Shown: positions 10,031 to 55,783 of the stretch, piece by piece
Layout: every line of letters begins with the position of its first letter
Position numbering within the stretch: the first letter of the stretch is position 1
Assembly: GCF_947581915.1 (NCBI RefSeq)
Contig: NZ_CANPWG010000038.1
Span: 89,429-153,428, forward strand
Length of the DNA stretch: 64,000 nt
DNA from: Candidatus Palauibacter scopulicola
GTDB lineage: Bacteria; Gemmatimonadota; Gemmatimonadetes; Palauibacterales; Palauibacteraceae
Direction: 5' to 3'
Notes under the pieces: generated by a model
What the model was told of the DNA's origin: nothing
The model's database searches: none
Seen by the model: only the letters and a program-made list of their open reading frames with translations
Made by a program: the position numbers and the translations under genes

Positions 10031-10036
10031 ATCACG

Positions 10037-11158: not shown

Positions 11159-11222
11159 GTCGCCGCCGGCTTCTCGCCGGGAAACCGGAACCTTCGGCGG
11201 ACTCGATCGGATAAAAGCCACC

Positions 11223-11957: not shown

Positions 11958-11980
11958 CGCCGTCGCCCCTCACGAGAGAC

Positions 11981-12367
11981 TCAGACGACGTCGTCGAGGA
12001 GGAAGAGGTCGGTGAGGAGTGCCCTCAGGTGGGACGAGGCGTTGAGGTTGTCGATCAACTGCGAACTGATCGTCTCCTGGGTGAGGACGATCCGGACCGC
12101 CGCCCCGGCCCGCGCGGCATCGGCCGAAGTCACGTCGATCATCTCGCCGTAGGCGCCCGCCGGTTCCAGCCCCTCCGCCGCCACCAGGCCGCCGAGGTCG
12201 TCCGCCAGCGCCCGGAGCGCGGCATCCGCCCGGCTCAGGTACTCCCGCAACTGGCCGCCGACCTTCGAGGCTTCCTCACGCTCGGCGCCGAGCGCGGCGT
12301 AGGAGAGGAAGAACTCGTACGCCTTTTCGAGCACCTCGATGTGAGCCTTCAGCTCCTCGCGGCTCAA
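11981..12367 (-). CDS. Hypothetical protein, last gene of the molybdoenzyme operon
   Basis: 128-aa ORF overlapping the cytochrome b gene by 4 nt (operon coupling). No recognisable domain. Confidence 0.4.
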   Translation of the reverse strand: MSREELKAHIEVLEKAYEFFLSYAALGAEREEASKVGGQLREYLSRADAALRALADDLGGLVAAEGLEPAGAYGEMIDVTSADAARAGAAVRIVLTQETISSQLIDNLNASSHLRALLTDLFLLDDVV

Positions 12368-13239
12368 GCGGGCACGACCCCGTCGGCGTCCGCGGACGAC
12401 GCGCTCCCCCCCGCCATCTCGGCCCCGGCCGGCTCCGTCCCCAGCTTCCAGAGGTCGGGATCATAGTGCTCGAGGTACTCCTCGCGCGTGATCCAGCCCT
12501 TGATCATGGAGCGGGTCATCCAGCGCTTCTCGGGCCGGATGGCGAAGTAGACGTGGGCGATGACCATCGTGACGAGCCCGACGCCGCACAGCCCGTGCAG
12601 GACGAACACGAGCCCCCACGTGGAGTCGGAGAGGAAATACGGATTGCTCGCCCAGAACCAGGTGTCGACCCCGAACATCATGAGGATTCCCGTGACGATG
12701 ACCCCGAGCGAGACGAGCGTCACGGCGTTGTGGTAGGCCCGCTGGTCGAGCGGGTATTTTCCGGACCGCTCCTCCTTGGCCGGCTGGCGGCGCAGGAACT
12801 TCCCGGCCGCCTGGAACGCCTGTCCGATCTCCTTCGCCCCGGTCCACACGGACCAGAAATCCTGCTTCGTCGAGGCGTGGATGATGTGCCAGATGATGAG
12901 GAGCGTCAGGACGATCCCCGCGATCCAGTGAATCGTGACCCAGGCGAACTGGACGCCGATCACGGGGAAGAACGCCGTGACCAGCAGCGTGAGCATCGTC
13001 GCCGCCATGAGCCAGTGGAAGGTCCGGGACGCCTGTGAGTGGCGCTCGACCCGCTCGGGCACGTCGGGCGCCGCCTCCGGCGCGGTCTTCGGAGCCTTGG
13101 GCGCCATGATCCAGACGTACAGATGGTGCCCGACCACGAACAGGAAACCGGCGATGGCGGCGGCCCAGAGCAGATCCCAGGCGACGCCGACGAGTACCTC
13201 CTGGCCCCAGGGATTCGGCGCCGTTCTGAGGATCTCCAT
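12364..13239 (-). CDS. b-type di-heme cytochrome membrane subunit (FdnI / Ni-Fe-hydrogenase cytochrome b family)
   Basis: About 4-5 TM helices with conserved His pairs (HHLYVW, FHWLMA, HWIAG...WHIIH, LHGLCG...AHVYF). Confidence 0.65.
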   Translation of the reverse strand: MEILRTAPNPWGQEVLVGVAWDLLWAAAIAGFLFVVGHHLYVWIMAPKAPKTAPEAAPDVPERVERHSQASRTFHWLMAATMLTLLVTAFFPVIGVQFAWVTIHWIAGIVLTLLIIWHIIHASTKQDFWSVWTGAKEIGQAFQAAGKFLRRQPAKEERSGKYPLDQRAYHNAVTLVSLGVIVTGILMMFGVDTWFWASNPYFLSDSTWGLVFVLHGLCGVGLVTMVIAHVYFAIRPEKRWMTRSMIKGWITREEYLEHYDPDLWKLGTEPAGAEMAGGSASSADADGVVPA

Positions 13240-14238
13240 TTAGGCCATGTCTCCTCGCACCGCGCGCCGGACGAGATTCCGCGCGAGCGGCACCTTGTAG
13301 TCGTTGTGGCGCAGCGGCTTGAAGCCGCGCGTAGCGAGTTCGCCGGCCGCCATGCCGGTGTCGTCGTTCGCCGGCATGCCCTGGATGAGGTCCTCGACGT
13401 CGGTCAGCCGCACCGGCGTCGGGGCCACGCCGTTGAGCGCGATCCGGGCGCGCTCGATCGTGCCGTTCGACTCGACGATCGCGGCGGCCACGCTGGCCAG
13501 CGCCCAGTCCCACGACTTCCGGTCGCGGACCTTCTCCCAGTAGAAGCGCGCGTCCGCCCAGTCGCCGGGGATGCGCACGTGCGTCAGGAGATCTCCCGGT
13601 TCCAGCACGGTCATACGCTCGATGTCGATCTCCGGGCCGACGAAGAAGTCCTCGGCCTCGTAGACGCGCTCGCCGCCTTGGCTCCGCACCATCATCTGCG
13701 CGCCGAGCGCGACCAGCGCCCCGGCCGTGTCGGCCCCGTTCACCGCCACGCAGCGGCTCTGTCCGGTCACGGCGTGCTCGCGGTTCATGGAGCGGGGCGT
13801 CCCCGCGTAGCAGATGTTTCCGCCCGCGCGGTAGCACGGCCACCCGCCACGGTAGTACCAGCAGCGCGTGTCCTGGATGAGGTTGCCGCCCAGCGTCCCC
13901 TGGTTGCGGATCTGCGGCGTCGCCACCTCGACGGCGGCGTCGGCGAGGAGTCCGAAGCGGGACCGCACGTCCTCGCTCGCCGCCACGTCGCGCAGCGAAG
14001 TCATGGCGCCGATCTCAAGCCCGTCCCCGCTCGCGCGGATTCCGGTCAGCTCGCTCACGGAGCCCAGCTCGACGACGACGTCGGGCCGCTTGATGCGGTC
14101 CTTGAACCAGTCCATCGAGTCGAGGCCGCCGGCCAGAACCCAGGTGTTGTCGTGGCGCTCGAGCACGTCCAGCGCCTCGTCCACGCTCGTCGGCTGGAAG
14201 AGCTCGAACGCGGGCATCATGTCGCGAATCACGGCCAT
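13240..14238 (-). CDS. FAD-binding subunit of xanthine dehydrogenase / aldehyde oxidoreductase family (CoxM/PaoB-like)
   Basis: FAD-binding motifs VLAGGLDSMDW, GTLGGNL. 332 aa. Confidence 0.8.
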   Translation of the reverse strand: MAVIRDMMPAFELFQPTSVDEALDVLERHDNTWVLAGGLDSMDWFKDRIKRPDVVVELGSVSELTGIRASGDGLEIGAMTSLRDVAASEDVRSRFGLLADAAVEVATPQIRNQGTLGGNLIQDTRCWYYRGGWPCYRAGGNICYAGTPRSMNREHAVTGQSRCVAVNGADTAGALVALGAQMMVRSQGGERVYEAEDFFVGPEIDIERMTVLEPGDLLTHVRIPGDWADARFYWEKVRDRKSWDWALASVAAAIVESNGTIERARIALNGVAPTPVRLTDVEDLIQGMPANDDTGMAAGELATRGFKPLRHNDYKVPLARNLVRRAVRGDMA

Positions 14239-14251
14239 CGTCCTATCTCCC

Positions 14252-16693
14252 CTAGCTGTGGATCTCGGTGAGTGCGTGCGGCTGCGCCCGGCCCTCGAGC
14301 TCGGCCAGGATCACGTCCGTCGTCAGCGGGATCCGGCACAGGCAGCGCCCGCCGAGCGCGTCCGCGATCGCGGAGGTGACCGCCGCGGATCCGGCTCCGA
14401 CCGGGGGCTCCCCGATTCCCTTGGCGCCGATCGGCGTCTGCGGGTCCGGCTCGCCCGCCGCCGCCCAGTCCATGCTGAGCGGCACGTCGAGGATGCCGGG
14501 AGGTCTCGCGGTATAGAGTCGGTGGGCGAACGGCACGCCCCACTTCGGGTCGTACACCCACTTCTGGCTGCGCGCCTGGCCGAAGCCCTGCACGCTGCCG
14601 CCGTGGATCTGCGCCGCGAGGCTGCGCGGGTGCACGACGACCCCGCAGTCGGCGGAGCCCGTGTAGTCGACGAGTACCACGTCGCCGGTCTCGGTATCGA
14701 GTTCGACGACCGCGAAGCCCACGACCCACGACCACGTCGAGCCCTCGTGCGAGAAGTTGTCCCGCGCGACGCCCATCAGGCCCTGGCCCGCCAGCTGAGT
14801 GGCGGACCCCCGGGTGTAGTCGTTGATGTCCTCCGGCAACTCCTGGCCGGAGTACTCGCCGCCCATGGCGATGGCGCGCTCCGCGGCCTGCGCGAAGCTC
14901 ATCGAGCCTCCCGGTCCGGTCACGCGGGCGCCCTCGACCCGGTAGCCGCTCGCCGCGCCGCCCAGCGCGGCGGCCGCGACCTCCTGCAGCTTCCGCTTCA
15001 TGTCGAGTGCGGCGGCGTAGTTGGCGCGCGTGTGCGCGTGGATCGTCTGGCTCCCCGCCTGCACCGAGCTGTACGGGTGGTGCTGCGAGCTGTCGCCCCA
15101 GATGACCGCGCAGTCGTCCCACTCGAGGCCGAGTTCATCCGCCGCGGCCCGGGCCGTGTCCGCCATCGAGTGCGTACCGAGGTTCCCGATCCCCTGGTGG
15201 ATGTAGAGCTTCCCGTCCGGGCGGATGAGGAGGAGCCCGTCGAACCCCGACGAACCGCCGACGTACGGGCTCAGCCCGACCCCGACCCCCGTGACCTTCG
15301 TCCCGTTCCGCTGTCCGCTGAGCGCCTGCTTGCCAGCCCAGTCGAACTGTTCCGCGCCCACGTCGATCGCCTCGCGCACGAAGGCGCTCGTCGTCGTGGC
15401 CCGCCCCGGCCCGAACTCCGAGTCGTGCGTGGGGGCGTTGATCTTCCGGATATCCACCCGGTCGATCCCAAGTTCGCGCGCCGCCTTGTCGACGAGCGGC
15501 TCCAGCATGGCGACGATCTGCGCGCCGCCCGGCGCCCGCTGCGCCGCCCGCGGCGGCGTGTTCGTGTAGAGCGTGAGGCCGCGGAAGCGCATCGCGTCGG
15601 GCTGGTACATGAGGTCCGTCACCGCGCCCGCGGTGTTGTAGTCGCCCGACCGTCCGTACGGCCCGTGGTCCTGGATGATGTAGAGGTCGATCCCCGTGAT
15701 CTTCCCGTCGCTGCGGAAGCCCATCTTCGTCCAGGCCTGGAAGCCGGGACGCGCACGCCCGATGTAGTTCTCCTCGTAACGGTTGATCCGCATCATCACC
15801 GGTCGCTGGATCTTCCTCGCGAGGAGCGCGGTGACCTGGTAGATCGTGGCGCCGGCGATCTTGGAGCCGAAGCCGCCGCCGCAGTACTGGCCCACGAATA
15901 CGACGTCCTCCGGCTCGAGGCCCAGCTGCCCCGCCAGCGCCTGGTGGGTGCGCTGGGTGCTCTGCGTGGATCCGTACAGGTAGCAGCGCCCGTCCTCCCA
16001 GTACGCCATGGAGCTGCGCGGCTCCATCGGGTGGTGGGTGAGCGACTGGTGCACGATGGTGTCCTCGAGCACGTAGTCCGCGTCGGCGAACGCCGCGTCG
16101 AGGTCTCCGTGCGACCACTCGTCCGTCGGATCGCCCATCGGCAGCCGATTCTCGGCCTCCGCCGCGTCGAACTCCGCCTGCGGCCACTTCAGGGACACCC
16201 ATTCCGGCCCGTCCTCGCCGAAGCGTCTGACGTTGCCTTCAACCCGGGCGTCCGGTCCGCCTGGCCGCAGGCTGTCGAGCGGGTCGATCGCGAACGGGAG
16301 CGGCTCGAGGTCGATGTCGATCAGCTCGATGGCGTCCGCCGCCGTCGTCTCGTCGACCGCCGCCAGCGCCAGGATGGGCTCGCCCACGTACTTCGGCTCA
16401 TCCGTGAGCGCGGCCTCGCCCGGTGCGTCGGGCTGGTTGACCTCGCTCGCCCGCAGGATCCCGAGCACGCCGGGCATGGCGAGCGCGCGGCTCGCGTCCA
16501 GGCTGCGCACGCGGGCGTGCGGCATGGGGCTGAGGAGGAGCTTCGCGAAGACCATGCCTTCGGCCCTGAAGTCCTCCGCGTACCTGGCTCGTCCCGTGAC
16601 TTTCGCGCGCAGATCCGGCGGCGAAATGTCCTGTCCGATTAGCGCCATGATCGTCCTCCCCTCACACCATGCGCCGCGCGTACTCGGCGGCAC
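14252..16693 (-). CDS. Molybdopterin-binding large subunit, xanthine dehydrogenase family (PaoC/CoxL-like)
   Basis: 813 aa with XDH-family aldehyde-oxidase a/b hammerhead and Moco-binding regions (GGGFG, AGEPP). Confidence 0.85.
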   Translation of the reverse strand: MPPSTRGAWCEGRTIMALIGQDISPPDLRAKVTGRARYAEDFRAEGMVFAKLLLSPMPHARVRSLDASRALAMPGVLGILRASEVNQPDAPGEAALTDEPKYVGEPILALAAVDETTAADAIELIDIDLEPLPFAIDPLDSLRPGGPDARVEGNVRRFGEDGPEWVSLKWPQAEFDAAEAENRLPMGDPTDEWSHGDLDAAFADADYVLEDTIVHQSLTHHPMEPRSSMAYWEDGRCYLYGSTQSTQRTHQALAGQLGLEPEDVVFVGQYCGGGFGSKIAGATIYQVTALLARKIQRPVMMRINRYEENYIGRARPGFQAWTKMGFRSDGKITGIDLYIIQDHGPYGRSGDYNTAGAVTDLMYQPDAMRFRGLTLYTNTPPRAAQRAPGGAQIVAMLEPLVDKAARELGIDRVDIRKINAPTHDSEFGPGRATTTSAFVREAIDVGAEQFDWAGKQALSGQRNGTKVTGVGVGLSPYVGGSSGFDGLLLIRPDGKLYIHQGIGNLGTHSMADTARAAADELGLEWDDCAVIWGDSSQHHPYSSVQAGSQTIHAHTRANYAAALDMKRKLQEVAAAALGGAASGYRVEGARVTGPGGSMSFAQAAERAIAMGGEYSGQELPEDINDYTRGSATQLAGQGLMGVARDNFSHEGSTWSWVVGFAVVELDTETGDVVLVDYTGSADCGVVVHPRSLAAQIHGGSVQGFGQARSQKWVYDPKWGVPFAHRLYTARPPGILDVPLSMDWAAAGEPDPQTPIGAKGIGEPPVGAGSAAVTSAIADALGGRCLCRIPLTTDVILAELEGRAQPHALTEIHS

Positions 16694-17294
16694 GCATGGC
16701 GGAGTTCAGGATTTTGTTGTAGTCCCCGCAGCGGCAGAGGTTGCCGGAGAGGGCCTCGGCCGCCTCCTCGCGCGTGGGCTCCGGATTCTCGTTCGTGAGC
16801 GCGACCATGCTCATGATGAAGCCGGGCGCGCAGAAGGCGCACTGGAAGCCGCCCTCGTCGATCACCGCCTGCTGCACCGGGTGCAGCGTGCCGTCCGCGC
16901 TCTCGAGCCCCTCGATCGACGTCACCGACCGGTCGCGCACCGCGTTCGTCAGCATCGAGCACGCGTAGTGCGAGACCCCGTCGATGAGCACCGTGCAGGC
17001 GCCGCACTCCGCGCGGTCGCACCCGAGCTTCGTGCCTGTGAGCCCCAGCTTGTAGCGGAGCGTCATGGCCAGCGTCTCCTGCGGCATGACATCGACCGAA
17101 CGCGACACCCCGTTCACGTTCAGCGAGATCATGCGGGGCATCGACGCCCGCACGGCCGCGCTGGCCGACAGGCTCCGGGCCCGGAAGAGGTGGCTGGAGG
17201 AGGAGACCACCGCGCCGGTCGCGATGACCCCCTTGATGAACGTCCTGCGGGAATGACCGGTTGGGGTCTCGGTCGTGATCTCGGCGTCACTCAT
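16662..17294 (-). CDS. (2Fe-2S)-binding small subunit with Tat signal (PaoA-like)
   Basis: Tat motif SRRTFIKG. Two 2Fe-2S cysteine clusters (CDRAECGACTV; CAFCAPG...CRCGDY). Confidence 0.85.
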   Translation of the reverse strand: MSDAEITTETPTGHSRRTFIKGVIATGAVVSSSSHLFRARSLSASAAVRASMPRMISLNVNGVSRSVDVMPQETLAMTLRYKLGLTGTKLGCDRAECGACTVLIDGVSHYACSMLTNAVRDRSVTSIEGLESADGTLHPVQQAVIDEGGFQCAFCAPGFIMSMVALTNENPEPTREEAAEALSGNLCRCGDYNKILNSAMRAAEYARRMV

Positions 17295-17437
17295 GTGCGA
17301 ACCTCAAGCGGGAGACCTTCTTGCGCGTTTGCGTCGCGCTCACCGCGTTCCCGCGGGAGACGCAACGATCCACGGTGAATCCTTACATCGCCCGCCCCGG
17401 GAAACAAGACTGCCGGCCACGCTCCCGGCGGGGGTTG

Positions 17438-19555
17438 TTACAGGATCCTGAGGAATCGGGGGTCCACGGAGAGGAGGACGATCCAGTCCTCTCCGCGCAT
17501 GACGTCGAGGCGCAGGATGTCGTAGAAAAGGCCCGCGCCGAGGCCGGCCGAGGCCCGCAGCCCCTCGCTTCCGCCCACGCCGAAGCGGCGGGCGGCGCTC
17601 TCGCCGGCGCGGCCGATGTCAGCCCGGCCGACGGCACCGATGGCGCGCAACCGCAGCCAGGGGGACGCGATCGCGCGCGACACCTCGGCACGCCACAGCG
17701 CCATGCGGTCCCCGCCCCAGCCGCGAAACTCGTAGCCGGGCAGCGAACCGCGCCCCCCGAGCAGGAAGAGGCGCTGGGCCGGCAGCGTGCCGCCCGCGGC
17801 CCCGAACTCGATCCCGCTCGCCCAGGTCCACGCGCCACCGGGATACCCCCGGGCCCGCAGCGCGGCCGTGGCGCGCGTGTAGCCGAAGTCCCCGATGCCA
17901 GGCGCCGCTGCTTCTCCCGCGAGTTCCAGCGTCCACCGCGTCCCCGGCCCGCCCTGGAGCTCCACAGTCAGTCCGGCATCGACCCGGGCCAGCTCCCCGT
18001 CGTCGACCGGGCGCACGGGGCGAAGCGGCCGGTCTCCGAACGGCGCGGTCCCGACGACCAGTCCGGCGCTCCGGTGACGCTCGAAGGAAGCGCCGACCTG
18101 CCAGCGCACGGGACCCTCGCGGCGCGCGATCCCGATCCGTCCGCCGGTCGTGAGGTAGGGGTCCTCGTAGTCCTCTCCCCCGGCGAGGAGGGCAAGCGTC
18201 CGCAACGCCCCGACGCCAGCCGGCGGCCCCACATCGCGGTGAGCCCGCAGCCAGCCGTCGACCTCCACCTCGACCGCCCCCACCCGTCGGCGCAGCCCAA
18301 GGCTCGCCTGGGGCCGCGCCTCCCCGATCGCATGGCCGCCCCCGAACGACACCCGCGTGAGGTCGTTCGGCCGGTAGGTGCCTCCCGCCCCGACGAACAG
18401 GCCCTCGGAACGCCGCGCCCGGATCCCCCCGGAGGCGTTCGGAAGCGCCAACTGCCAGCGTCGCCCCCCGAGCAGGGTCCGCCGCAGCAGGAGTCCGCGT
18501 GCGTCCGCGACGGCCGCCCCCAGATCGCCGTCGGCGCTTCCTCCCTCGAGCGGTCCCGCAAACAGCGGGTCTTCCCATGCGTCGAAGCGGGCCAGCTCCT
18601 CGTCCCGATAGCTGTAGATGAGGTCTCCCGGCCCGAGCCCGAAGAGCGCCTCCTCGCCAAAGTCGTAGTCGAGGACGCGGAGGCGGGTCCGGACGAGCGT
18701 CTCGAGCGGGAAGTCGAACCACGGAAGGGAGCGCACGATCTCGAGTTCCTGCTCGTCGGGCAGCCAGTAGCGGCCCTCCTGCAGGGCCGAGCGCAGGTCG
18801 ACGACGAGCCGCACGATCTGCGGGTCGCGATAGGCGGCGGGGGTGAACGTGACCCGCATCCGCGCGATGGCCCCCGTCTCCCGCTCGACGAAGAGCGACC
18901 CCACGGCGCCCGCGTCCGTCCCGTCCAGCGGACGGACCTCGAGTTCGAAGACCCGCGCCGTTCGGTCGCGGACCCGGATCTCGAGCGAGTCCGCGAGCCG
19001 GTATTCGTAGAACTCGCGCGCGCCGGCCGCCGCGGGATGAAGCACGTCACGGATCTCCTGGCCGTGGCCGTCTCCGATCCGGATCCGGTCCCCGAAGTTG
19101 TCGAGGACGAGAAAGAGGTGGTCGAGGTGATAGTGGATGGTGGTGGGCAGCCGGAGTTCGTGCCGGCGCCCGACGATCGTCTGCATCGAGCGGTCCGGGC
19201 GCTGCCAGCGCACATCCACCGCGACCTGGTCCGCCCGGATGACGTGCCGCTCCCCGAGGATGTCGCCGAGGTAGTACACGTGCCCCTGCACGTCGGCCCG
19301 AAATCGTTCGAGGGAGCTGTCGGCCCAGGCGTACCGCCGCGCATCGATCGCGTGCCCGATGAGCAGAAGCGCCGCTTCGGAGTTCCAGCCATCCGAGCCC
19401 CCGGCCCGCGGAGCCTCGGCCGGCGCTGCCGGGATCTCCTGGGCTCCGGCGCCGGAGGCGAAACAGAGCACGGCCAGGGCGACCGCCGCCGCGGTGGCCA
19501 CCGTGGAGGCGGCCACGCGCCTCCCGTCAGCCGAAGAGGTCCTCCTGGCCGTCAT
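17438..19555 (-). CDS. Hypothetical secreted / outer-membrane protein with signal peptide
   Basis: 705 aa. N-terminal signal peptide (AVALAVLCFASGAGAQE). Gly-rich C-terminal half that could form a beta-barrel. No confident family assignment. Confidence 0.5.
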   Translation of the reverse strand: MTARRTSSADGRRVAASTVATAAAVALAVLCFASGAGAQEIPAAPAEAPRAGGSDGWNSEAALLLIGHAIDARRYAWADSSLERFRADVQGHVYYLGDILGERHVIRADQVAVDVRWQRPDRSMQTIVGRRHELRLPTTIHYHLDHLFLVLDNFGDRIRIGDGHGQEIRDVLHPAAAGAREFYEYRLADSLEIRVRDRTARVFELEVRPLDGTDAGAVGSLFVERETGAIARMRVTFTPAAYRDPQIVRLVVDLRSALQEGRYWLPDEQELEIVRSLPWFDFPLETLVRTRLRVLDYDFGEEALFGLGPGDLIYSYRDEELARFDAWEDPLFAGPLEGGSADGDLGAAVADARGLLLRRTLLGGRRWQLALPNASGGIRARRSEGLFVGAGGTYRPNDLTRVSFGGGHAIGEARPQASLGLRRRVGAVEVEVDGWLRAHRDVGPPAGVGALRTLALLAGGEDYEDPYLTTGGRIGIARREGPVRWQVGASFERHRSAGLVVGTAPFGDRPLRPVRPVDDGELARVDAGLTVELQGGPGTRWTLELAGEAAAPGIGDFGYTRATAALRARGYPGGAWTWASGIEFGAAGGTLPAQRLFLLGGRGSLPGYEFRGWGGDRMALWRAEVSRAIASPWLRLRAIGAVGRADIGRAGESAARRFGVGGSEGLRASAGLGAGLFYDILRLDVMRGEDWIVLLSVDPRFLRIL

Positions 19556-19889
19556 CGTCCGACTCCATGACCCGCCGCAGTCTGCCGGCCCAGTACTCGA
19601 CGTCGAAACCCTCTTCGTTCTTCAGCATCCGCTTGAGCACCGGCGACAGGTCGCGCAGCGCGCCCACGAGGTCCTCGGCGATGGAGCCGGCCTCGGCCAC
19701 CCGGGCCTCGTCCGGGAGCGACGCCATGTCCCGGAGGATCGAAGCTTCGGATCGCGAGGCCGTAACGGGTTCGGAACGGCTGGCGACGAAGACCTCCGTG
19801 CGCCGGCCGGGTCCACGATCTTCCTCGATCGGGAGCAGTCCGACGATCTGGTCGGAGCGCCAGTACTTCGCGTACCCGAGGTGCACCAT
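19527..19889 (-). CDS. Hypothetical protein, possibly DUF370-like
   Basis: MVHLGYAKYWRSDQIVGLLP resembles the DUF370 N-terminus (LINIGFGNxVxxxRIVAIVSP). Start assigned to the internal ATG at 19889. Confidence 0.35.
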   Translation of the reverse strand: MVHLGYAKYWRSDQIVGLLPIEEDRGPGRRTEVFVASRSEPVTASRSEASILRDMASLPDEARVAEAGSIAEDLVGALRDLSPVLKRMLKNEEGFDVEYWAGRLRRVMESDDDGQEDLFG

Positions 19890-20104
19890 CCGGTCGCGTT
19901 TGATCTCCACGCCGCCTCCGTTCCGCCTGCTCGTGCTCCCGTGGGAAAGCCCCTGCCGAAGCCCTGACGGGTCCAAGCTCGCGAACGTCCCGACCGCGCC
20001 GCAACACCGCCAGCACCTCCAACTGGCCGTATGCCGCGGGCCACATGCCGCCGCCCCGGTTGATTGGCCGTTGAACGCCGCGCGGATCATGTTCAGCGAC
20101 GCCC

Positions 20105-21457
20105 ATGGCCAGAATACGAACCATCCGTGATCCCCTGTGGGGGAACGTCCGCGTGGAGGGGGACGCGGCCGAGATTCTCGACGCGCCGCAGTTCCAGCGC
20201 CTGCGGCGGGTCAAGCAACTCGGCTTCGCGCACCTCGTGTATCCCGGCGGCGTGCACAACCGCTTCCTGCACGCCCTCGGCGTCTACCATCTCGTCTCGC
20301 GGGCCATCTCCCGTCTGGAGCGCGACGGACACCTCGAGGCGCTGGATGCGGAAGACATGGGCGAACTGCCGGTCGTCCGTCTCGGCGCGCTCCTCCACGA
20401 CGTGGGGCACTACGCCTTCTCGCACGCGGTGGAGGAACTCGGTCCGAGCGCGATCCCGGGAGACCACGAGGAGATCGCGGCGCGCTTCATGGCGGCGGAC
20501 CCCATCCGGCGCGTCCTCGAGCGGTACGGCCCGGATGCCCCGGCGCGCATCGGTGCCCTCATCCGCGGGAGGTCCGGCCACCCGCTGCAGGGACTGATCT
20601 CCGGATCGCTGGACCTCGACAAGATCGACTACCTCCGGCGCGACTCCCTCTTCTGCGGCGTGCCGTACGGGGCCGTGGACGTCGACCGCCTGCTCCCCGC
20701 GCTCACCGTCGCCCGGGAGGGAGAGGGACGCCGGCTCGAACTCGCGGTCAGCGAGAAGGGGCTCAGCGCGCTGGAGACGCTCCTCTTCTCCAAGTACCAG
20801 ATGTTCCGCAACGTCTACTGGCACCACGCCGTGCGCGCCGCGACGCTGACCTTCGTGCGCCTCGTGCAGACGGCGCTCGGCAGCGGACTGCTCGCGTCCG
20901 AGGACTTGGCGGGCCCCAGCGACGAGGAACTGCTCGCGCTCATCGGCCGGCGCATCGAACGATCGTCGGCGGGCGCGGGTTACGACGGCGCGTCCGCCGT
21001 CGGCCGGGCGGCGAAGCTGCTGCGGGCGCTCGTCGACCGGCGCCTTCCGAAGCGGCTCGTGGAGCTGACGGGCGATCAGCTTCCGGACGCGTTGTCGTCG
21101 TGGCCGTCGCGGCGCCCGGACCTCGTCGCCGCGCTCGAACGGCGCATGGCGCTCGAGTGGGGACTCGCCGAGGGCGCGGTCATGCTCGACTACCCGAGCT
21201 ACCCGGGCATGCTCGAGCTCAACCTGCTCCTCGTGCGGAACGACGGCGAAGTTCGCCGGCTGACGGCGCTGGGCGAGCGCGGCCTCATCGACATCCCGCG
21301 GCTCGGGCGTTCCCTGCACCACTCGGCGCGGGTTCTGCGCATCTTCTCCTTCGAACCTTCCGCTCCGCGCGATCCGAAGCCGGTGCTGGCGCTGATCGAA
21401 GCCGCGGAGGAGGAAGTGGAGGCGCGGCTCGGCTCGGGAGTGCCGCTCCTGGCCTGA
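20105..21457 (+). CDS. HD-domain dNTP triphosphohydrolase (dGTPase / SAMHD1 family)
   Basis: NRFLHALGVYHLV and LLHDVGHYAFSH match the dGTPase HD motifs. 450 aa. Confidence 0.75.
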   Translation: MARIRTIRDPLWGNVRVEGDAAEILDAPQFQRLRRVKQLGFAHLVYPGGVHNRFLHALGVYHLVSRAISRLERDGHLEALDAEDMGELPVVRLGALLHDVGHYAFSHAVEELGPSAIPGDHEEIAARFMAADPIRRVLERYGPDAPARIGALIRGRSGHPLQGLISGSLDLDKIDYLRRDSLFCGVPYGAVDVDRLLPALTVAREGEGRRLELAVSEKGLSALETLLFSKYQMFRNVYWHHAVRAATLTFVRLVQTALGSGLLASEDLAGPSDEELLALIGRRIERSSAGAGYDGASAVGRAAKLLRALVDRRLPKRLVELTGDQLPDALSSWPSRRPDLVAALERRMALEWGLAEGAVMLDYPSYPGMLELNLLLVRNDGEVRRLTALGERGLIDIPRLGRSLHHSARVLRIFSFEPSAPRDPKPVLALIEAAEEEVEARLGSGVPLLA

Positions 21458-21586
21458 AGACCTTGCACGACCTGCCTGTTGGCATGCGCCACGGGCGCTT
21501 GGCTCCTGAGCGCCCCGGCGCTCGTTCGCGCGTGCCCCGGCGCGCGCGGTAGGATCAACAGCCTGCGGTAAGGAAAGGTTTGTCCG

Positions 21587-22585
21587 ATGCCTGGATCGGC
21601 GCTGCCGATCGAACCACAGCGAGACAGCGCGAGAGCGCGGAAGATCCACTCGCCCGCGCCCGCGTCGAACGGCGCGGGTCCGGCTGCGGAGCCGCGCGCG
21701 GATGCGCCCCTCGTGCGGCTGGACCACCTGGACACGCTCTGGTTTCAGGTGACCGGGACGATCTGCAACCTGCGCTGCGTCCACTGCTTCATCAGCTGTG
21801 CCCCGGACAACGACAGCTTCGAGTTTCTCTCCCTCGCCGAGGTCGAGGACTGGCTCGGGCGCTCCGAGAAGTGGGGCGTCAAGGAGTACTACTTCACCGG
21901 CGGCGAGCCCTTCATGCATCCCGACCTCCCCGCCATGCTGGAACGGACCCTGGAGCGGGGGCCCGCTTCCGTGCTGACGAACGGGACTCTGCTCCCCGCG
22001 CGGGCCCTGAAGCCCATCGCCCGGACCGCCCGCGCGGCGAGCTACTCGCTCGAGATGCGCGTTTCCCTCGACGGGCCGTCGCCCGAGACGAACGACCCCA
22101 TCCGGGGCGCGGGCACCTTCGATCGCGCGATGGACGGCGTCCGGAAGCTGCTCGCCGAGGGATTCCTTCCGATCATCACCGCGACGCAGGTATGGGAACC
22201 GGAACGGGATGAAGAGGTTCGACAAGCCTTCGTCGCACGGCTTCGGTCGCTCGGGTACGAGAACCCGCGGCTCAAGATTCTCCCGTCGCTCCGCATCGGA
22301 CGCGAAGCCGACCGGGTGCGCCCCTATGCGGATGAGGAGCGCGTGACGGAGGCGATGCTGGAGGGATACGACGAGAACCAGCTGCTCTGCGCGTCGAGCC
22401 GGGTAGTGACGAACCGCGGCATCTACGCCTGTCCCATCCTCATCGAGACGCCCGCGGCGCGCATGGGTTCGACGCTCGAAGAGGCGTCCCGCCCGGTGCG
22501 GCTCGGCGAGTCCGCGTGCCACACGTGCTGGCTGCACGGCGCGATCTGCTCCAACTACGGGGGCATCGGGCAGGATGTCTCCTGA
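21587..22585 (+). CDS. Radical SAM protein with C-terminal auxiliary Cys-rich (SPASM/twitch-like) domain; MoaA-like
   Basis: CNLRCVHC (CX3CX2C), GGEP motif (YYFTGGEPFMH). C-terminal cysteines: CASSRVVTNRGIYAC and CHTCWLHGAIC. GG near the C-terminus. AAGGAAAGG RBS upstream of the ATG. Confidence 0.75.
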   Translation: MPGSALPIEPQRDSARARKIHSPAPASNGAGPAAEPRADAPLVRLDHLDTLWFQVTGTICNLRCVHCFISCAPDNDSFEFLSLAEVEDWLGRSEKWGVKEYYFTGGEPFMHPDLPAMLERTLERGPASVLTNGTLLPARALKPIARTARAASYSLEMRVSLDGPSPETNDPIRGAGTFDRAMDGVRKLLAEGFLPIITATQVWEPERDEEVRQAFVARLRSLGYENPRLKILPSLRIGREADRVRPYADEERVTEAMLEGYDENQLLCASSRVVTNRGIYACPILIETPAARMGSTLEEASRPVRLGESACHTCWLHGAICSNYGGIGQDVS

Positions 22586-23378
22586 ACCGCGACGGATCGC
22601 CGTCTTCGGCGGCGTCTACAGCAATCACCTGGCGCTGGCGGCGGCAATTGAGGACGCGGCCTCCCGGGGGGCGGAAGCGATCTACTGCCTGGGCGACCTC
22701 GGGGCGTTCGGCCCCCACCCGGACCGGGTCTTTCCGCTCCTCATCGACCACGACGTTCGCGTTCTGCGCGGGAACTACGACGATTCGATCGCGCGCGGCC
22801 TCGATGATTGCCAGTGCGGCTACACCGACCCGCGCGACAACTACTTCGCCCGGCTCTCGTACCGCTACACGTTCCGGAACACGGACGAGCGGTGGCGCCG
22901 CTGGATGGGCCGCCTCCCCGGCGAGATCCGCCTCGAGGCGAACGGGACGCGGGTGCTCATGTGCCACGGCAGCCCCCGGCGCATGAACGAGTTCCTCTGG
23001 GAATCCGCGACCTCAACACAGTTTCTGGCCTGGCTCGCCGGCGAGTACGAGGCGGACATCGTGCTCGCGACCCATACCGGGATCCCTTGGCATCGCCCGC
23101 TGCCCGGCGGCGGATTCTTCGCCAACGTCGGCGTCCTGGGCAGGCCCGCGAACGACGGGCGGCCGGAGGTGTGGTACGCACTGCTCGATTTCGGCGCCGA
23201 CACGGGGGCGCCGCCGAGTCTCGAGTTCGTGCCGGTGAGCTACGATCACGAGCGCCTCGCCGGCGAGATGCGCGACGAAGGACTGCCGGAGGAGTTCGTG
23301 GAGACGATCGTCACGGGGTGGTGGACCACCTGCCTCGAGGTCCTCCCGGCCCGCGAACGCGCCCGCGGCCGGTTCTGA
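22575..23378 (+). CDS. Metallophosphoesterase (calcineurin-like; YfcE/MJ0936-like)
   Basis: Metal-binding motifs GDLGAFGP, GNYD, MCHGSP. Overlaps the radical-SAM gene by 11 nt. Confidence 0.75.
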   Translation: MSPEPRRIAVFGGVYSNHLALAAAIEDAASRGAEAIYCLGDLGAFGPHPDRVFPLLIDHDVRVLRGNYDDSIARGLDDCQCGYTDPRDNYFARLSYRYTFRNTDERWRRWMGRLPGEIRLEANGTRVLMCHGSPRRMNEFLWESATSTQFLAWLAGEYEADIVLATHTGIPWHRPLPGGGFFANVGVLGRPANDGRPEVWYALLDFGADTGAPPSLEFVPVSYDHERLAGEMRDEGLPEEFVETIVTGWWTTCLEVLPARERARGRF

Positions 23379-23510
23379 CGCACTCACCCGACCATATCTT
23401 TTGCGGCGCGGGCGATCCGCGTTATTTTCAATTCAGCGTCGGATGGTCCGCGCGCGACGGAGCCGGAATCGGGAGCCTGACCGGGTCGACGTCAGAGAGA
23501 GGAAGTTGCG

Positions 23511-24350
23511 ATGGATCGCGAGGGTTTGTCGCCGAACATCCTGGAACGTTACCTCGAGGAGCTGGGTCGTTATCCACTCCTGAGCCCCAGCGAGGAACGT
23601 GAGACCGCGCGCTCGGCTCGCAGCGGCGACTCCTCCGCCCTCGACCGCCTCATCCGCGCGAATCTCCGCTTCGTCATTTCCATCGCCCGACGATACCGCA
23701 ACAAGGGGCTGAGCTTCCTCGACCTGATTCAGGAGGGGAACGTCGGCCTGGTCATCGCTGCCCGGAAGTTCGACCCGGACCACGGCGTGAAGTTCATCAG
23801 CTACGCCGTGTGGTGGATCCGCCAGGCGATCCTGTCCGCCATCGCGAAGCAGGGCCGGCCGGTGCGGGTGCCTCTCAATCGGGCGAACGAGCTGGCGCGT
23901 ATGATCCGCGCGCGGGGTGAACTGCGTCAGACCCTCGACCGTGAGCCCAGCGATCGGGAGCTCGCCGAGGAGACGGGGTTGACGATGCCCACGGTCGCGC
24001 TGCTGCGGAGACTGAACGCGCGCGAGGTTCGACTCGACGCGCGGGTCGGGGCCGCCGACGACAGCGATCTCGCGGAGCGGTTCCTCGCGGACGAGACGGA
24101 TGTCGAGGAAGTCGTCGAGCAGCGCCTGCTGAAGCGGCACATCGCCGAGGGTCTGCGCCGGCTGCGGCCACGCGACGCGCGCGTGGTGCGGCTGTACTAC
24201 GGACTGCAGGGCGAAGACCCGCACACGCTGGAGCAGATCGGCCGCTTGCTGGGCGTGACGCGCGAACGCGTCCGGCAGCTCCGGGACCGGGCGCTCCGGG
24301 AGCTGCGGGAGGGCCCCGAGGGACAGAGCCTCGCCACCTTCGCGACCTAG
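23511..24350 (+). CDS. RNA polymerase sigma factor, sigma-70 family (group 2/3-like)
   Basis: Region 2 (DLIQEGNVGLVIAARKFD, ISYAVWWIRQAI) and region 4 (LEQIGRLLGVTRERVRQL). RBS GAGAGAGGAAG. Confidence 0.85.
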   Translation: MDREGLSPNILERYLEELGRYPLLSPSEERETARSARSGDSSALDRLIRANLRFVISIARRYRNKGLSFLDLIQEGNVGLVIAARKFDPDHGVKFISYAVWWIRQAILSAIAKQGRPVRVPLNRANELARMIRARGELRQTLDREPSDRELAEETGLTMPTVALLRRLNAREVRLDARVGAADDSDLAERFLADETDVEEVVEQRLLKRHIAEGLRRLRPRDARVVRLYYGLQGEDPHTLEQIGRLLGVTRERVRQLRDRALRELREGPEGQSLATFAT

Positions 24351-24484
24351 CAACCCGTGGCAAGACCCCGCGCGGCCGGCTTGAGGCGGCGGCGCTGACG
24401 CCGGTCGGGCTGGTTCAGCATCCCGACTGCAGCCGGCACGACACGGGCTGGGGTCACCCGGAGCACCAGGGACGGCTCCGCGCG

Positions 24485-25363
24485 GTGATGACCGCGCTCG
24501 AGCGGGCGCTGCCCGAGCTTCACGAGGATGTCCTCCCCGTCATGCCGTCGCCGGCCGAAGTCGCCGCACTGGAACGGGCCCACGCGCCGGGACATGTGGA
24601 ACGGGTGCGGGCGGTCTGCGACCGGTCCGTCGAGAGCGGAGGGATCGTGCGGATCGATCCCGATACGCCGGTCTCGCCGGGAAGCTGGGACGCCGCCGTC
24701 GCCGCGTCCGGGTGCGGAATCGCGGCGGTGGACGCGGTCCTCGACGGAACGTGCCGCGCGGCCTTCTGCGCCGTGCGCCCGCCGGGCCACCACGCGACCC
24801 CGGATCGGGCGATGGGCTTCTGCCTCTTCAACCACATCGCCGTGGCCGCCCGTCACGCCCTGACGCGGCCGGGAGTCGAGCGGGTTCTGATCGTGGACTG
24901 GGACGTGCACCACGGAAACGGGACCCAGGACATCTTCTACGACGACCCTTCCGTGTTCTTTCTCTCGATGCACCAGCACCCGCTCTTCCCCGGCACCGGA
25001 GCCGCCGGCGAACGGGGACGGGGAGCGGGAGAGGGGACGACGCTGAACCTGCCCATGCCCGCAGGGCTTCCGCCCGAACGCTACGTGCAGACGCTGCTCG
25101 ACGGCGTCGATCGCGCGCTGGCCCGCTTCGAGCCCGACCTCACGCTCATCTCCGCCGGGTTCGACGCGGGGGCGGAGGATCCGCTGGGAGGCTTCACCCT
25201 CACCCCGGCGCACTTCGACACGCTGACGCACGAGGTCGTCGGGCGGACGCGGGCCACGGCCCGAAACCGCGTGGTCTCCTTCCTCGAGGGCGGTTACAAT
25301 CCCGACGAACTGGGACGCAACGTCGTCTCGCACCTGACCGCCCTTCGCGACGCCACGGGCTGA
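24485..25363 (+). CDS. Histone deacetylase-family protein (AcuC/HDAC-like amidohydrolase); real N-terminus lies upstream
   Basis: Motifs RPPGHHA, DWDVHHGNGTQ, GGYN. Conserved N-terminal residues (GLVQHPDCSRHDTGWGHPE) are encoded in-frame upstream of the first GTG/ATG, back to about 24362. Confidence 0.75.
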   Translation: MMTALERALPELHEDVLPVMPSPAEVAALERAHAPGHVERVRAVCDRSVESGGIVRIDPDTPVSPGSWDAAVAASGCGIAAVDAVLDGTCRAAFCAVRPPGHHATPDRAMGFCLFNHIAVAARHALTRPGVERVLIVDWDVHHGNGTQDIFYDDPSVFFLSMHQHPLFPGTGAAGERGRGAGEGTTLNLPMPAGLPPERYVQTLLDGVDRALARFEPDLTLISAGFDAGAEDPLGGFTLTPAHFDTLTHEVVGRTRATARNRVVSFLEGGYNPDELGRNVVSHLTALRDATG

Positions 25364-52517: not shown

Positions 52518-52570
52518 CAGCCCATGGCGCAAGCCCCGCTGCGTTCGAGCGGCGAGCGCATCCCGCCGGA

Positions 52571-52990: not shown

Positions 52991-52997
52991 GGAGTTC

Positions 52998-54206: not shown

Positions 54207-54247
54207 AGGTCATGACACCTCATGTGACTTCTTATTTGACATCTTGT

Positions 54248-54275
54248 TTGACACGATAAGATACCATATTATAAC
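54248..54275 (+). promoter_or_regulatory. Near-consensus sigma70-type promoter (TTGACA-16-TATAAC) reading toward the M8 protease gene
   Basis: TTGACA at 54248-54253 and TATAAC at 54270-54275 inside an AT-rich island. A second TTGACA lies at 54236-54241. Confidence 0.35.
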
Positions 54276-55706: not shown

Positions 55707-55783
55707 TCCATCCCGTTGACCGAATAAACCGTACATTCCTATGCTCAGGCCGGCGTCCCTCGACCTCCATGGGGTAAGGCACA

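What the first reader, a model, noticed from the sequence alone, without database searches (positions are those of the whole stretch)
20105..23378. Candidate nucleotide-modifying system: dGTPase-like HD hydrolase, MoaA-like radical SAM protein and metallophosphoesterase
Three same-strand genes lie together. The first is a dNTP triphosphohydrolase-family HD protein. The second is a 332-aa radical SAM protein. Its N-terminal cluster (CNLRCVHC), GGEP motif, C-terminal Cys pattern (RVVTNRGIYAC, like MoaA RLRLTADGKLYLC) and near-terminal GG resemble the GTP-utilising enzyme MoaA, but it carries extra cysteines and has no moa gene context. The third is a YfcE-like phosphoesterase that overlaps the radical SAM gene by 11 nt. 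Radical SAM enzymes paired with nucleotide hydrolases are reminiscent of viperin-like and dNTP-depletion antiviral systems and of modified-nucleoside pathways. A sigma factor and an HDAC-like amidohydrolase follow. I found no precursor-peptide ORF nearby, which argues against a RiPP maturase.
Basis: inference. Interest (0 to 1): 0.7.

Follow-up and report, generated by a model that had tools for sequence, protein, structure and literature searches.

The report
Radical SAM enzyme with phosphoesterase-like partner
The three genes exist, but only the radical SAM enzyme and the phosphoesterase-like protein form a conserved, uncharacterised unit; in other bacteria that pair sits among arsenic-methylation, "arsenosugar" and phosphonate-transport genes, so arsenic- or phosphorus-type small-molecule chemistry is more likely than nucleotide modification or phage defence.

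Summary

- **Radical SAM protein:** it is not MoaA (48.6 bits against a cut-off of 284) and not a viperin. Its best curated match is the uncharacterised Rv1681 family, also below cut-off.
- **The conserved unit:** this is radical SAM plus phosphoesterase-like protein. They overlap by 11 nt here. They are adjacent in 47 of 55 assessable metagenome loci and in several phyla, and are fused into one protein in Actinomycetota.
- **HD hydrolase:** it is a neighbour only within Gemmatimonadota, often with an opposite-strand PP2C gene in between.
- **Partner protein:** it has the SapH-like fold but has lost three ligands of one metal site. It carries five family-invariant cysteines.
- **Context elsewhere:** the pair recurs with a flavoprotein, ArsM-family methyltransferases (also fused), TIGR04282/TIGR04283 "arsenosugar" transferases, DedA, DUF547 and phosphonate-type importers.
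- **Context here:** none of these partners lies in this window.

My best reading is a self-contained module for radical chemistry on an arsenic-type or phosphorus-type anion, by analogy with ArsS and ArsL. The chemistry is inferred, not shown. No defence signal was found.

The parts
21587..22585 (+). Radical SAM enzyme, twitch/SPASM-like, in a family close to but outside the Rv1681 family. The first ~35 residues are variable and poorly modelled, so the true start may lie further downstream.
   Evidence: Pfam Radical_SAM 77 bits. The best NCBIfam hit is NF049973 (Rv1681 family) at 100.7 bits against a cut-off of 380. MoaA scores 48.6/284 and ArsS 49.5/300. Family-invariant residues are C60/C64/C67, GGEP105-108, C268, R272, C282, C311 and C314, with C321 invariant among close relatives. 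The AlphaFold2 model has pLDDT 77; its nearest solved folds are BlsE, SkfB, SuiB and anSME at TM about 0.5.
22575..23378 (+). Phosphoesterase-fold partner protein (SapH/PF1291-like) with a remodelled active site.
   Evidence: Pfam Metallophos_2 34.2 bits against 27. The model has pLDDT 86; nearest folds are SapH 3qfm (TM 0.77-0.80), 1nnw, 2gju and 3rqz. The profile alignment to SapH shows three ligands of one metal site replaced (D to G13, H to Y15, second H of GHxH to G169). D41, N67, H131 and H167 are kept. C38, C79, C81, C130 and C253 are invariant in the close family, and the GGxYxN and CxCG motifs survive at 35% identity. No NCBIfam model matches.
22575..22585 (+). 11-nt overlap of the radical SAM stop with the partner's start, suggesting translational coupling.
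   Evidence: Coordinates. A comparable overlap is kept in Palauibacter relatives, where the phosphoesterase-like match starts a few bases before the radical SAM match ends.
23405..23432 (+). Terminator-like GC hairpin followed by ATTTTCAATT, the probable end of the two-gene transcript.
   Evidence: This is a single consensus match (2 found in the region against 1.8 expected), so it is weak on its own. Its position 27 nt after the stop codon is suggestive.
21515..21586 (+). Conserved 3' half of the HD-radical SAM intergenic gap, probably the radical SAM gene's own promoter or 5' leader.
   Evidence: It is 82-96% identical at the DNA level in 12 of 13 matching Palauibacter-type loci (75% over a longer stretch in the other), while the 5' half of the gap is not matched. 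There is no Rfam match, so no Moco or SAM riboswitch. No sigma-70 consensus was found.
20105..21457 (+). SAMHD1/EF1143-type HD phosphohydrolase. It is a lineage-specific neighbour and probably not part of the module.
   Evidence: Pfam HD plus HD_assoc_2. PDB sequence matches are 2hek (8e-41), 2o6i (EF1143) and SAMHD1. It is syntenic only within Gemmatimonadota, often with PP2C in between, and absent beside the pair elsewhere.

Best explanation
The functional unit is a bicistronic two-protein module. It consists of a twitch-type radical SAM enzyme (21587-22585) and a cysteine-rich, SapH-like phosphoesterase-fold partner (22575-23378) that lacks one of its two metal sites. The upstream HD hydrolase, the sigma factor and the HDAC-like gene are syntenic neighbours, not components.

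**Shown.**
- The pair is coupled by overlap, by adjacency across phyla and by fusion.
- It is not MoaA, viperin or ArsS by their curated models.
- Its relatives are embedded among ArsM-family methyltransferases, TIGR04282/TIGR04283 'arsenosugar' transferases, a dedicated flavoprotein, DedA, DUF547, MerA-like and AhpD-like genes.
- Phosphonate-type importers also recur in those neighbourhoods.

**Inferred.**
- The enzyme reductively cleaves SAM and uses the resulting carbon radical on a small anionic arsenic-type substrate, or possibly a phosphorus- or selenium-type one. This would make a carbon-heteroatom bond, as ArsS and ArsL do on trivalent arsenic.
- The partner protein, through its conserved cysteines and its remaining metal site, binds, presents or further processes that substrate or product.
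- The Palauibacter copy is a stripped-down, stand-alone version of the module.
For: **Coupling of the pair.**
- The genes overlap by 11 nt.
- The phosphoesterase-like gene lies directly downstream in 47 of 55 metagenome loci with enough sequence, and elsewhere in the locus in 3 more.
- The pair is kept in Gemmatimonadota, Acidobacteriota (L028, L031), Verrucomicrobiota (L030) and Alphaproteobacteria (L122). In Actinomycetota the order is reversed.
- Single-protein fusions exist: P0269, L034 (663 aa), P0423, P0479 and P0494.

**Gene company of relatives.**
- ArsM-like methyltransferase genes lie in 10 of 80 loci, and three representative proteins are fusions.
- These methyltransferases keep the CC, GCGDP, SNCVLNL and CISGA cysteine motifs. 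One scores 332 bits on the arsinothricin ArsM model.
- TIGR04283 is above its cut-off in L028, L030 and L090. TIGR04282 is above its cut-off in L090 and in the Roseomonas plasmid annotation.
- DUF2064 fusion P0211 exists, and the flavoprotein is fused in P0123 and P0128.
- The flavoprotein sits directly upstream in 23 of 52 assessable loci.
- Importers and a porin for phosphonate- or phosphate-type anions lie beside the pair.

**Remodelled partner protein.**

**Separate transcription.** The pair has a conserved upstream leader and a terminator-like site.
Against: - None of the arsenic-associated partners lies in this 64-kb window or within 6 kb in any Palauibacter-type locus.
- In Gemmatimonadota the pair sits in a housekeeping syntenic block. 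That fits a constitutive role better than arsenic handling.
- The names 'arsenosugar glycosyltransferase' rest on co-occurrence with ArsS, not on experiment.
- The radical SAM protein scores only 49.5 bits on the ArsS model.
- No biochemical datum exists for any member of the family.
- Phosphonate-type transporters and fusions to nucleotidase-type HD_3 fit other chemistries equally well.
Confidence: 0.42

Rival explanations
1. The module breaks carbon-phosphorus or carbon-arsenic bonds rather than making them. An imported phosphonate- or arsonate-type compound would be cleaved by the radical SAM enzyme, following the logic of PhnJ. The phosphoesterase-like partner would then hydrolyse the resulting phospho product.
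For: - A PhnD/PhnE/ATPase transporter is inserted between the two genes on the Roseomonas plasmid.
- A 2-aminoethylphosphonate-type ABC importer lies directly upstream in L107; its ATPase homologue abuts the radical SAM gene in L087 and L119.
- An OprO/P-type porin and a solute symporter lie upstream in L090.
- A glycerophosphodiester phosphodiesterase lies near the pair in L120.
- PhnD-like binding proteins sit beside more distant relatives.
- A constitutive scavenging role would suit the housekeeping context in Gemmatimonadota.
Against: - There is no similarity to PhnJ or to any other C-P lyase subunit.
- The recurring ArsM-family methyltransferases and glycosyltransferases look biosynthetic.
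- The partner has lost one metal site, which argues against a standard phosphodiesterase.
- No transporter lies beside the pair in this window.
Confidence: 0.15
2. The radical SAM enzyme acts on an unrelated substrate such as a lipid, cofactor or sugar. The flavoprotein and the cysteine-rich partner would form its private electron-delivery chain (NAD(P)H to FAD to a metal or iron-sulfur site to the radical SAM cluster). The arsenic-type neighbours would then be a lineage-specific add-on.
For: - The flavoprotein is the commonest third gene and is fused to the enzyme in P0123 and P0128. A thioredoxin fusion, P0187, also exists.
- Four of the five invariant cysteines of the partner flank former metal-binding motifs.
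- The closest solved relative, BlsE, acts on a sugar acid nucleoside.
- The pair lies in a housekeeping context in Gemmatimonadota.
- GT2, DedA/UptA-like and CDP-alcohol transferase neighbours hint at lipid-linked sugars.
Against: - No phosphoesterase-fold iron-sulfur protein is known to me (own knowledge).
- The flavoprotein is missing beside the pair in this window and its relatives, whereas the partner never is.
- ArsM-enzyme fusions are hard to explain without a metalloid substrate.
Confidence: 0.2
3. One reading: HD dNTPase, radical SAM enzyme and phosphoesterase form one three-gene system that modifies or depletes nucleotides, possibly as an antiviral defence like viperin.
For: - The three genes are on the same strand and close together.
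- The HD protein belongs to the SAMHD1/EF1143 group.
- One distant relative is fused to a YfbR-like 5'-deoxynucleotidase domain (P0239).
- A nucleoside phosphorylase gene lies upstream in L035.
- Viperins appear among distant structural matches.
Against: - HD is not co-conserved outside one phylum, and PP2C on the opposite strand often separates it from the pair.
- The pair has its own conserved leader.
- PADLOC gives only weak hits to the radical SAM core, and nothing for the partner.
- The viperin model scores 37 bits against a cut-off of 180.
- The locus lies in a phylum-wide syntenic housekeeping block with no mobile or defence genes.
Confidence: 0.05
4. The enzyme is a divergent MoaA that makes the first intermediate of molybdenum cofactor from GTP.
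For: - The CX3CX2C and GGEP motifs, the C-x13-C hairpin and the terminal GG are all present in the window protein.
- The organism encodes a xanthine-dehydrogenase-type molybdoenzyme nearby and so needs the cofactor.
Against: - The three MoaA models score 48.6/284, 51/231 and 58/325.
- The C-terminal cysteine order differs from the MoaA pattern as I recall it (the MoaA pattern is own knowledge).
- The terminal GG is not conserved in the family.
- No moaB, moaC, moaD or moaE genes turned up among the gene neighbours examined in the window or related loci.
- There is no Moco riboswitch.
- The obligatory partner is a phosphoesterase-fold protein, not MoaC.
Confidence: 0.02
5. The enzyme is a SPASM/twitch-type peptide maturase (RiPP).
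For: Second-tier NCBIfam hits are peptide maturases such as ScmE/F, mycofactocin MftC and StsB at 60-64 bits. Structural neighbours include SkfB and SuiB.
Against: - All these hits cover only the radical SAM core and lie far below cut-off.
- There is no Pfam SPASM match.
- No conserved small ORF lies beside the pair.
- No peptidase or exporter partner recurs.
- The recurrent partners are small-molecule enzymes.
Confidence: 0.03

Closest known systems
Rv1681 family radical SAM protein (NCBIfam NF049973; Rv1681 is annotated 'MoeX' in Mycobacterium tuberculosis, function untested)
   Same: It is the best curated match of the window protein (100.7 bits). Actinobacterial relatives that score 252 bits on this model are fused or adjacent to the same phosphoesterase-like family, which is 42-51% identical to the window's. 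They share flavoprotein, GT2, AhpD-like and DUF427 neighbours.
   Different: The window protein is far below the 380-bit cut-off and only its N-terminal core matches the model. The gene order is reversed (enzyme first). Whether Rv1680 itself is the phosphoesterase-like partner could not be tested here.
ArsS (TIGR04167), the radical SAM enzyme that adenosylates dimethylarsenite in arsenosugar biosynthesis. ArsL, which transfers the aminocarboxypropyl group of SAM to arsenite in arsinothricin biosynthesis, is a second comparator (PMC12159101; bioRxiv 10.1101/2024.02.01.577332).
   Same: The proteins are of similar size, with a cysteine-rich C-terminal part. Relatives of the window gene keep the same company that NCBI annotates for ArsS: ArsM, TIGR04282, TIGR04283, DUF547, DedA and AhpD-like genes. 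ArsM-enzyme fusions mirror the ArsM-plus-ArsS logic.
   Different: The ArsS model scores only 49.5 bits against 300. The obligatory phosphoesterase-fold partner is not described for ArsS or ArsL, to my knowledge. None of the arsenic genes is near the window copy.
BlsE, cytosylglucuronate decarboxylase (PDB 7vob), and the twitch/SPASM radical SAM group
   Same: It is the closest solved structure by sequence (5e-15) and by fold. Both share a partial TIM barrel plus a C-terminal beta-hairpin domain.
   Different: The two are 21% identical, with TM about 0.5. The BlsE model scores 54 bits against 400. The substrate, partners and gene context all differ.
MoaA, GTP 3',8-cyclase
   Same: The CX3CX2C and GGEP motifs and a C-x13-C hairpin with an arginine four residues after the first cysteine are shared. 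MoaA is a distant structural match (1tv7).
   Different: All three MoaA models score far below cut-off. The C-terminal cysteine arrangement is different (the MoaA pattern is from my own knowledge). No moa genes, MoaC partner or Moco riboswitch are present.
SapH (Spr1479, PDB 3qfm), an Ap4A hydrolase/phosphodiesterase, and the uncharacterised PF1291/PH1004 proteins (1nnw, 2gju)
   Same: They are the best fold matches of the partner protein (TM up to 0.80). The overall length, the C-terminal helical extension and an aromatic residue in place of histidine in the GNH motif are shared.
   Different: The window family has lost three ligands of one metal site (G13, Y15, G169). It has gained invariant cysteines C38, C79, C81, C130 and C253 that SapH lacks.

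Membership tests
MoaA (GTP 3',8-cyclase) | Score above the curated cut-off of TIGR02666, NF001199 or TIGR02668 | tested here: not met
   48.6/284, 51/231 and 58/325 bits, covering the core region only.
MoaA (GTP 3',8-cyclase) | C-terminal three-cysteine cluster CX2CX13C and conserved terminal Gly-Gly (pattern recalled from own knowledge) | tested here: not met
   The family pattern is C268-x13-C282 ... C311-x2-C314(-x6-C321). The terminal GG is present in the window protein but not conserved across the family.
MoaA (GTP 3',8-cyclase) | moa gene context or a Moco riboswitch | tested here: not met
   The neighbours are HD, a phosphoesterase-like gene and a sigma factor. There is no Rfam match in 19400-24600. 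Whether another moaA exists in the genome could not be tested.
Prokaryotic viperin / PADLOC defence systems | Match to viperin models at family level, and a defence-island context | tested here: not met
   NF038283 scores 37.4/180. PADLOC pVip scores 46 bits over residues 59-175 only, dGTPase 18 bits, and the partner has no hit. The locus is a conserved housekeeping synteny.
ArsS (arsenosugar radical SAM) | Score above the TIGR04167 cut-off | tested here: not met
   49.5 bits against 300, covering residues 46-193 only.
ArsS (arsenosugar radical SAM) | Neighbourhood with ArsM and TIGR04282/TIGR04283 | tested here: inconclusive
   Met for many relatives at 37-55% identity. Not met in this window or its close relatives.
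Rv1681 family (NF049973) | Score above the 380-bit cut-off | tested here: not met
   100.7 bits over residues 51-214. The actinobacterial fused relatives reach 251.8 bits.
Twitch/SPASM radical SAM subgroup | C-terminal beta-hairpin domain with cysteines for an auxiliary iron-sulfur cluster | tested here: inconclusive
   There is no Pfam SPASM hit. However, C268, C282, C311 and C314 are invariant, and the nearest folds are BlsE, SkfB, SuiB and anSME. Cluster binding itself cannot be tested with these tools.
Calcineurin-like metallophosphoesterase | Pfam model above its gathering score, and the fold | tested here: met
   PF12850 scores 34.2 against 27. TM is 0.77-0.80 to SapH.
Calcineurin-like metallophosphoesterase | Full set of two-metal ligands (DxH, GD, GNH/GNx, H, GHxH) | tested here: not met
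   Three ligands are replaced: D to G13, H to Y15 and the second H of GHxH to G169. D41, N67, H131 and H167 are kept. The same pattern holds family-wide.
dNTP triphosphohydrolase (dGTPase TIGR01353; SAMHD1/EF1143 group) | Family-level model match for the HD protein | tested here: inconclusive
   TIGR01353 scores 17.8/152, so that model is not met. HD plus HD_assoc_2 are met, and there are strong PDB matches to 2hek, EF1143 and SAMHD1. Activity was not tested.

The most novel reading that the evidence does not exclude
The pair defines a third, very widespread class of radical SAM enzymes that form carbon-arsenic bonds, or the first that forms a carbon-phosphorus bond from a reduced phosphorus anion. 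Unlike ArsS and ArsL, it would work only together with a cysteine-rich pseudo-phosphoesterase that holds the substrate. The class would include the relatives of Mycobacterium tuberculosis Rv1681 ('MoeX'), whose molybdopterin annotation would then be wrong.
Probability: 0.22. Interest if true: 0.8.

Novelty: new variant of a known kind. Interest (0 to 1): 0.55.

Why it matters
- **Scale.** The radical SAM-partner pair is large: thousands of sequences, spread over at least five phyla (Gemmatimonadota, Acidobacteriota, Verrucomicrobiota, Pseudomonadota and Actinomycetota). It has no curated name for the partner, and I found no paper on it in the searchable library.
- **Testable lead.** Its fusions and neighbours suggest a new enzyme of organoarsenic or organophosphorus metabolism. 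Only two radical SAM enzymes, ArsS and ArsL, are known in that field.
- **Unusual protein chemistry.** A phosphoesterase fold that has traded one metal site for cysteines, and that always travels with a radical SAM enzyme, is unusual in itself.
- **Annotation.** The result corrects a tempting mis-annotation (MoaA or viperin-like). It also casts doubt on the 'MoeX' label of the related mycobacterial family.
- **Ecology.** For this genome, a sponge symbiont, it may bear on how sponge microbiomes transform arsenic. That link is speculative.

Tried and rejected
- **MoaA, viperin, ArsS, BlsE and RiPP maturase membership.** All curated models score far below cut-off.
- **Defence catalogue.** PADLOC gave nothing convincing.
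- **Riboswitch or RNA element upstream.** There is no Rfam hit at E ≤ 1.
- **Sigma-70 promoter scan.** None found, which is uninformative for this phylum.
- **Precursor peptide.** The only small ORF is a 30-aa TTG ORF. Its conservation is explained by DNA conservation within one genus.
- **Partners inside the window.** tblastn with ArsM-like, flavoprotein, DUF2064, TIGR04283, DedA, DUF547, MerA-like, AhpD-like and PNP queries found none.
- **Literature.** Searches for Rv1681/Rv1680, DUF547, the TIGR numbers, and radical SAM plus metallophosphoesterase plus arsenic returned nothing relevant.
- **Link to M. tuberculosis.** The third homologue search used an actinobacterial relative and returned no mycobacterial entry in its top 120. 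The Rv1680 = partner idea therefore stays untested.
- **AlphaFold database fold search.** The library was unavailable.
- **L036, L037 and L123.** These were checked as possible ArsS or family members. L036 and L037 are unrelated radical SAM proteins. In L123 the matching stretch carries no annotated gene and its neighbours are uninformative.
- **Cysteine distances in the partner.** They could not be measured because model coordinates are not exposed.

Full report
**Observation.**
The window is about 70% GC. It comes from a Candidatus Palauibacter genome (Gemmatimonadota); relatives in sponge-associated genome bins are 94-95% identical. They are real genes. Third-position GC is 0.88-0.90. Pfam finds HD plus HD_assoc_2, Radical_SAM and Metallophos_2. 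Each of the two downstream proteins has thousands of homologues. A sigma-70 factor, an HDAC-like gene and an M24 peptidase follow.

**What the radical SAM protein is not.**
- The three MoaA models score 48.6/284, 51/231 and 58/325 bits, and only over the radical SAM core.
- Viperin scores 37/180, ArsS 49.5/300 and BlsE 54/400.
- The best curated match is the uncharacterised Rv1681 family, at 100.7 bits against 380.
- PADLOC returns only weak hits to the radical SAM core and nothing for the partner.
- No Moco or SAM riboswitch lies upstream.
- An alignment of 30 family members down to 28% identity has these invariant residues: C60/C64/C67, GGEP, C268, R272, C282, C311 and C314.
The terminal GG is not conserved.
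- The AlphaFold2 model (pLDDT 77) is closest to BlsE, SkfB, SuiB and anSME at TM about 0.5. Viperin and MoaA rank further down.

**Which genes belong together.**
I ran tblastn with the window proteins against 37 genome loci. In Gemmatimonadota a long block is syntenic: outer-membrane protein, a 187-aa protein, HD, radical SAM, partner, sigma factor, HDAC-like gene and M24 peptidase. In several lineages of the phylum an opposite-strand PP2C gene separates HD from the radical SAM gene. Outside the phylum HD disappears, but the radical SAM-partner pair stays. This holds in Terriglobales (L028), Chthoniobacterales (L030) and an acidobacterial Multivoradales bin (L031). In four actinobacterial loci the order is reversed.

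Among 80 metagenome loci at 45-64% identity, 55 have enough downstream sequence to judge. In 47 of them the partner gene lies directly downstream, and in 3 more it lies elsewhere in the locus. HD occurs in one locus only. Single-protein fusions of partner and enzyme exist: P0269, L034, P0423, P0479 and P0494.

In the window the two genes overlap by 11 nt, and a terminator-like hairpin follows the partner gene. The 3' half of the HD-radical SAM gap is conserved at the DNA level among Palauibacter relatives, whereas the 5' half is not. This suggests the pair has its own leader. The unit is therefore the pair, not the triad.

**The partner protein.**
It has the calcineurin-like fold, nearest to the Ap4A hydrolase SapH (TM 0.77-0.80) and to the uncharacterised PF1291/PH1004 proteins. 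A profile alignment to SapH shows that three ligands of one metal site are replaced:
- Asp to G13;
- His to Y15;
- the second His of GHxH to G169.

The ligands of the other site (D41, N67, H131, H167) are kept. Five cysteines are invariant in the close family: C38 before GD, C79 and C81 in a CQCGY loop, C130 before the motif-IV His, and C253. The GGxYxN and CxCG signatures persist even at 35% identity on a Roseomonas plasmid. No NCBIfam model covers the protein. It is therefore either a one-metal enzyme or a pseudo-enzyme with a new thiol-based site. I could not measure whether the cysteines come together in space.

**Gene company in relatives.**
A search of cluster representatives found Rosetta-stone fusions of the enzyme with each of the following:
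- Methyltransf_31 methyltransferases (P0133, P0242, P0262);
- a flavoprotein (P0123, P0128);
- DUF2064 (P0211);
- a YfbR-like HD_3 nucleotidase (P0239);
- thioredoxin (P0187);
- the phosphoesterase-like partner itself (P0269).

Separate genes for the same partners appear beside the pair:
- The flavoprotein lies directly upstream in 23 of 52 assessable loci.
- ArsM-like methyltransferases lie in 10 of 80 loci and DUF2064 in 15 of 80.
- The ArsM-like proteins keep the CC, GCGDP, SNCVLNL and CISGA cysteine motifs, which I recognise as those of arsenite methyltransferases.
- One ArsM-like protein scores 332 bits on the arsinothricin ArsM model and 209 bits on the general arsenite methyltransferase model, both below cut-off.
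- TIGR04283 'arsenosugar' glycosyltransferases pass their cut-off in L028, L030 and L090. TIGR04282 passes in L090.
- DedA/VTT, DUF547, MerA-like, SelD-N-terminal-type oxidoreductase and AhpD-like genes recur.
- A Roseomonas plasmid carries, in order: TIGR04282, DUF547, a TrsS-like radical SAM gene, this enzyme family, a PhnD/PhnE/ATPase transporter and the partner.
- Other loci place a 2-aminoethylphosphonate-type importer, or an OprO/P porin plus a solute symporter, directly upstream.
- More distant relatives sit beside selD, selA and selB, GT2, DUF2064 and PhnD-like genes.

None of these partners lies in the 64-kb window.

**Mechanism.**
- *Shown:* the pair is a conserved and sometimes fused two-protein unit. 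It is distinct from MoaA, viperin and ArsS. Its relatives are embedded in gene sets that NCBI associates with arsenosugar and arsenic methylation, together with oxyanion and phosphonate transport.
- *Inferred:* the enzyme cleaves SAM and directs a carbon radical onto a small arsenic-type anion, or possibly a phosphorus- or selenium-type one. This is by analogy with ArsS (adenosyl transfer) and ArsL (aminocarboxypropyl transfer) (PMC12159101; bioRxiv 10.1101/2024.02.01.577332). The partner's cysteines and remaining metal site would bind, present or process that species, and the flavoprotein would supply or remove electrons.
- *Confidence:* about 0.4 for this chemistry. I am much more confident (about 0.85) in the architecture, that is, the pair as the unit with HD excluded.

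**Rivals.**
In order of weight:
- a private electron-transfer role for the partner, with an unrelated substrate;
- a bond-cleaving, phosphonate- or arsonate-scavenging role;
- a MoaA paralogue;
- a RiPP maturase.

The housekeeping synteny in Gemmatimonadota and the lack of arsenic genes near the window copy are the main arguments against the arsenic reading.

**Novelty.**
No paper in the searchable library deals with this pair, with Rv1681 as a radical SAM enzyme, or with the TIGR04282/TIGR04283/DUF547 gene set. The window copy is one member of a large uncharacterised family. I rate it a new variant of a known kind: a radical SAM enzyme in the orbit of ArsS-type clusters, with an unprecedented obligatory partner.

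**Verdict.**
I score interest at 0.55.

Noticed in passing
window 12364-17294 (- strand): A run of minus-strand ORFs whose sequences resemble xanthine-dehydrogenase-type molybdoenzyme subunits: a 2Fe-2S subunit (16662-17294), a large molybdopterin subunit (14252-16693), an FAD-binding subunit (13240-14238) and a further ORF (12364-13239). The assignment rests on reading the sequences, not on an HMM search. If right, the organism needs molybdenum cofactor and must have a genuine MoaA elsewhere. The window holds only one CX3CX2C ORF.
   Followed up: partly
window 52000-64000: GC content falls from 0.70-0.72 to 0.63-0.66. This may be a horizontally acquired segment. Its genes were not examined.
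   Followed up: no
window 19527-20090 (- strand): A 187-aa protein is conserved next to HD throughout Gemmatimonadota (64-97% identity) but has no Pfam or NCBIfam match. It overlaps the end of the upstream 705-aa outer-membrane-type gene by 29 nt.
   Followed up: partly
window 21490-21560: GC-rich near-palindromic repeats (GAGCGCCCCGGCGCTC, then GCGTGCCCCGGCGCGC) lie in the HD-radical SAM gap. They overlap the start of the segment conserved among Palauibacter relatives. They could be an operator or the HD terminator stem.
   Followed up: partly
L001, L002, L021, L022, L026, L027, L041: In other Gemmatimonadota an opposite-strand PP2C phosphatase gene sits between HD and the radical SAM gene. 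Palauibacter lacks it.
   Followed up: yes
L122 (Roseomonas haemaphysalidis plasmid NZ_CP061178.1, locus 5986-18861): This is a 13-gene cluster. It combines this enzyme family with a second, TrsS-like radical SAM gene, a PhnD/PhnE/ATPase transporter, the partner protein, two DUF547 genes, DedA, a MerA-like gene, a SelD-N-terminal-type oxidoreductase, TIGR04282 and GT2. Because the host is a cultured isolate, it is a good experimental entry point.
   Followed up: partly
L090 21-9655: A low-GC (35%) operon runs as follows: a flavoprotein/NapH-like ferredoxin fusion, a TIGR04283+TIGR04282 fusion, DUF547, a TIGR04282-like gene, an OprO/P-type porin, a solute-symporter-like transporter, the radical SAM gene and the partner.
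   Followed up: partly
L034 4786-6777; P0423, P0479, P0494: The actinobacterial sister family, which scores 252 bits on the Rv1681 model, often occurs as a single fused partner-enzyme protein. The 'MoeX, molybdopterin biosynthesis' label of Rv1681 therefore looks doubtful.
   Followed up: partly
window 24485-25363: The listed GTG start of the HDAC-like ORF aligns from position 14 of the Pfam model. The true start may lie slightly upstream or be a different codon.
   Followed up: no
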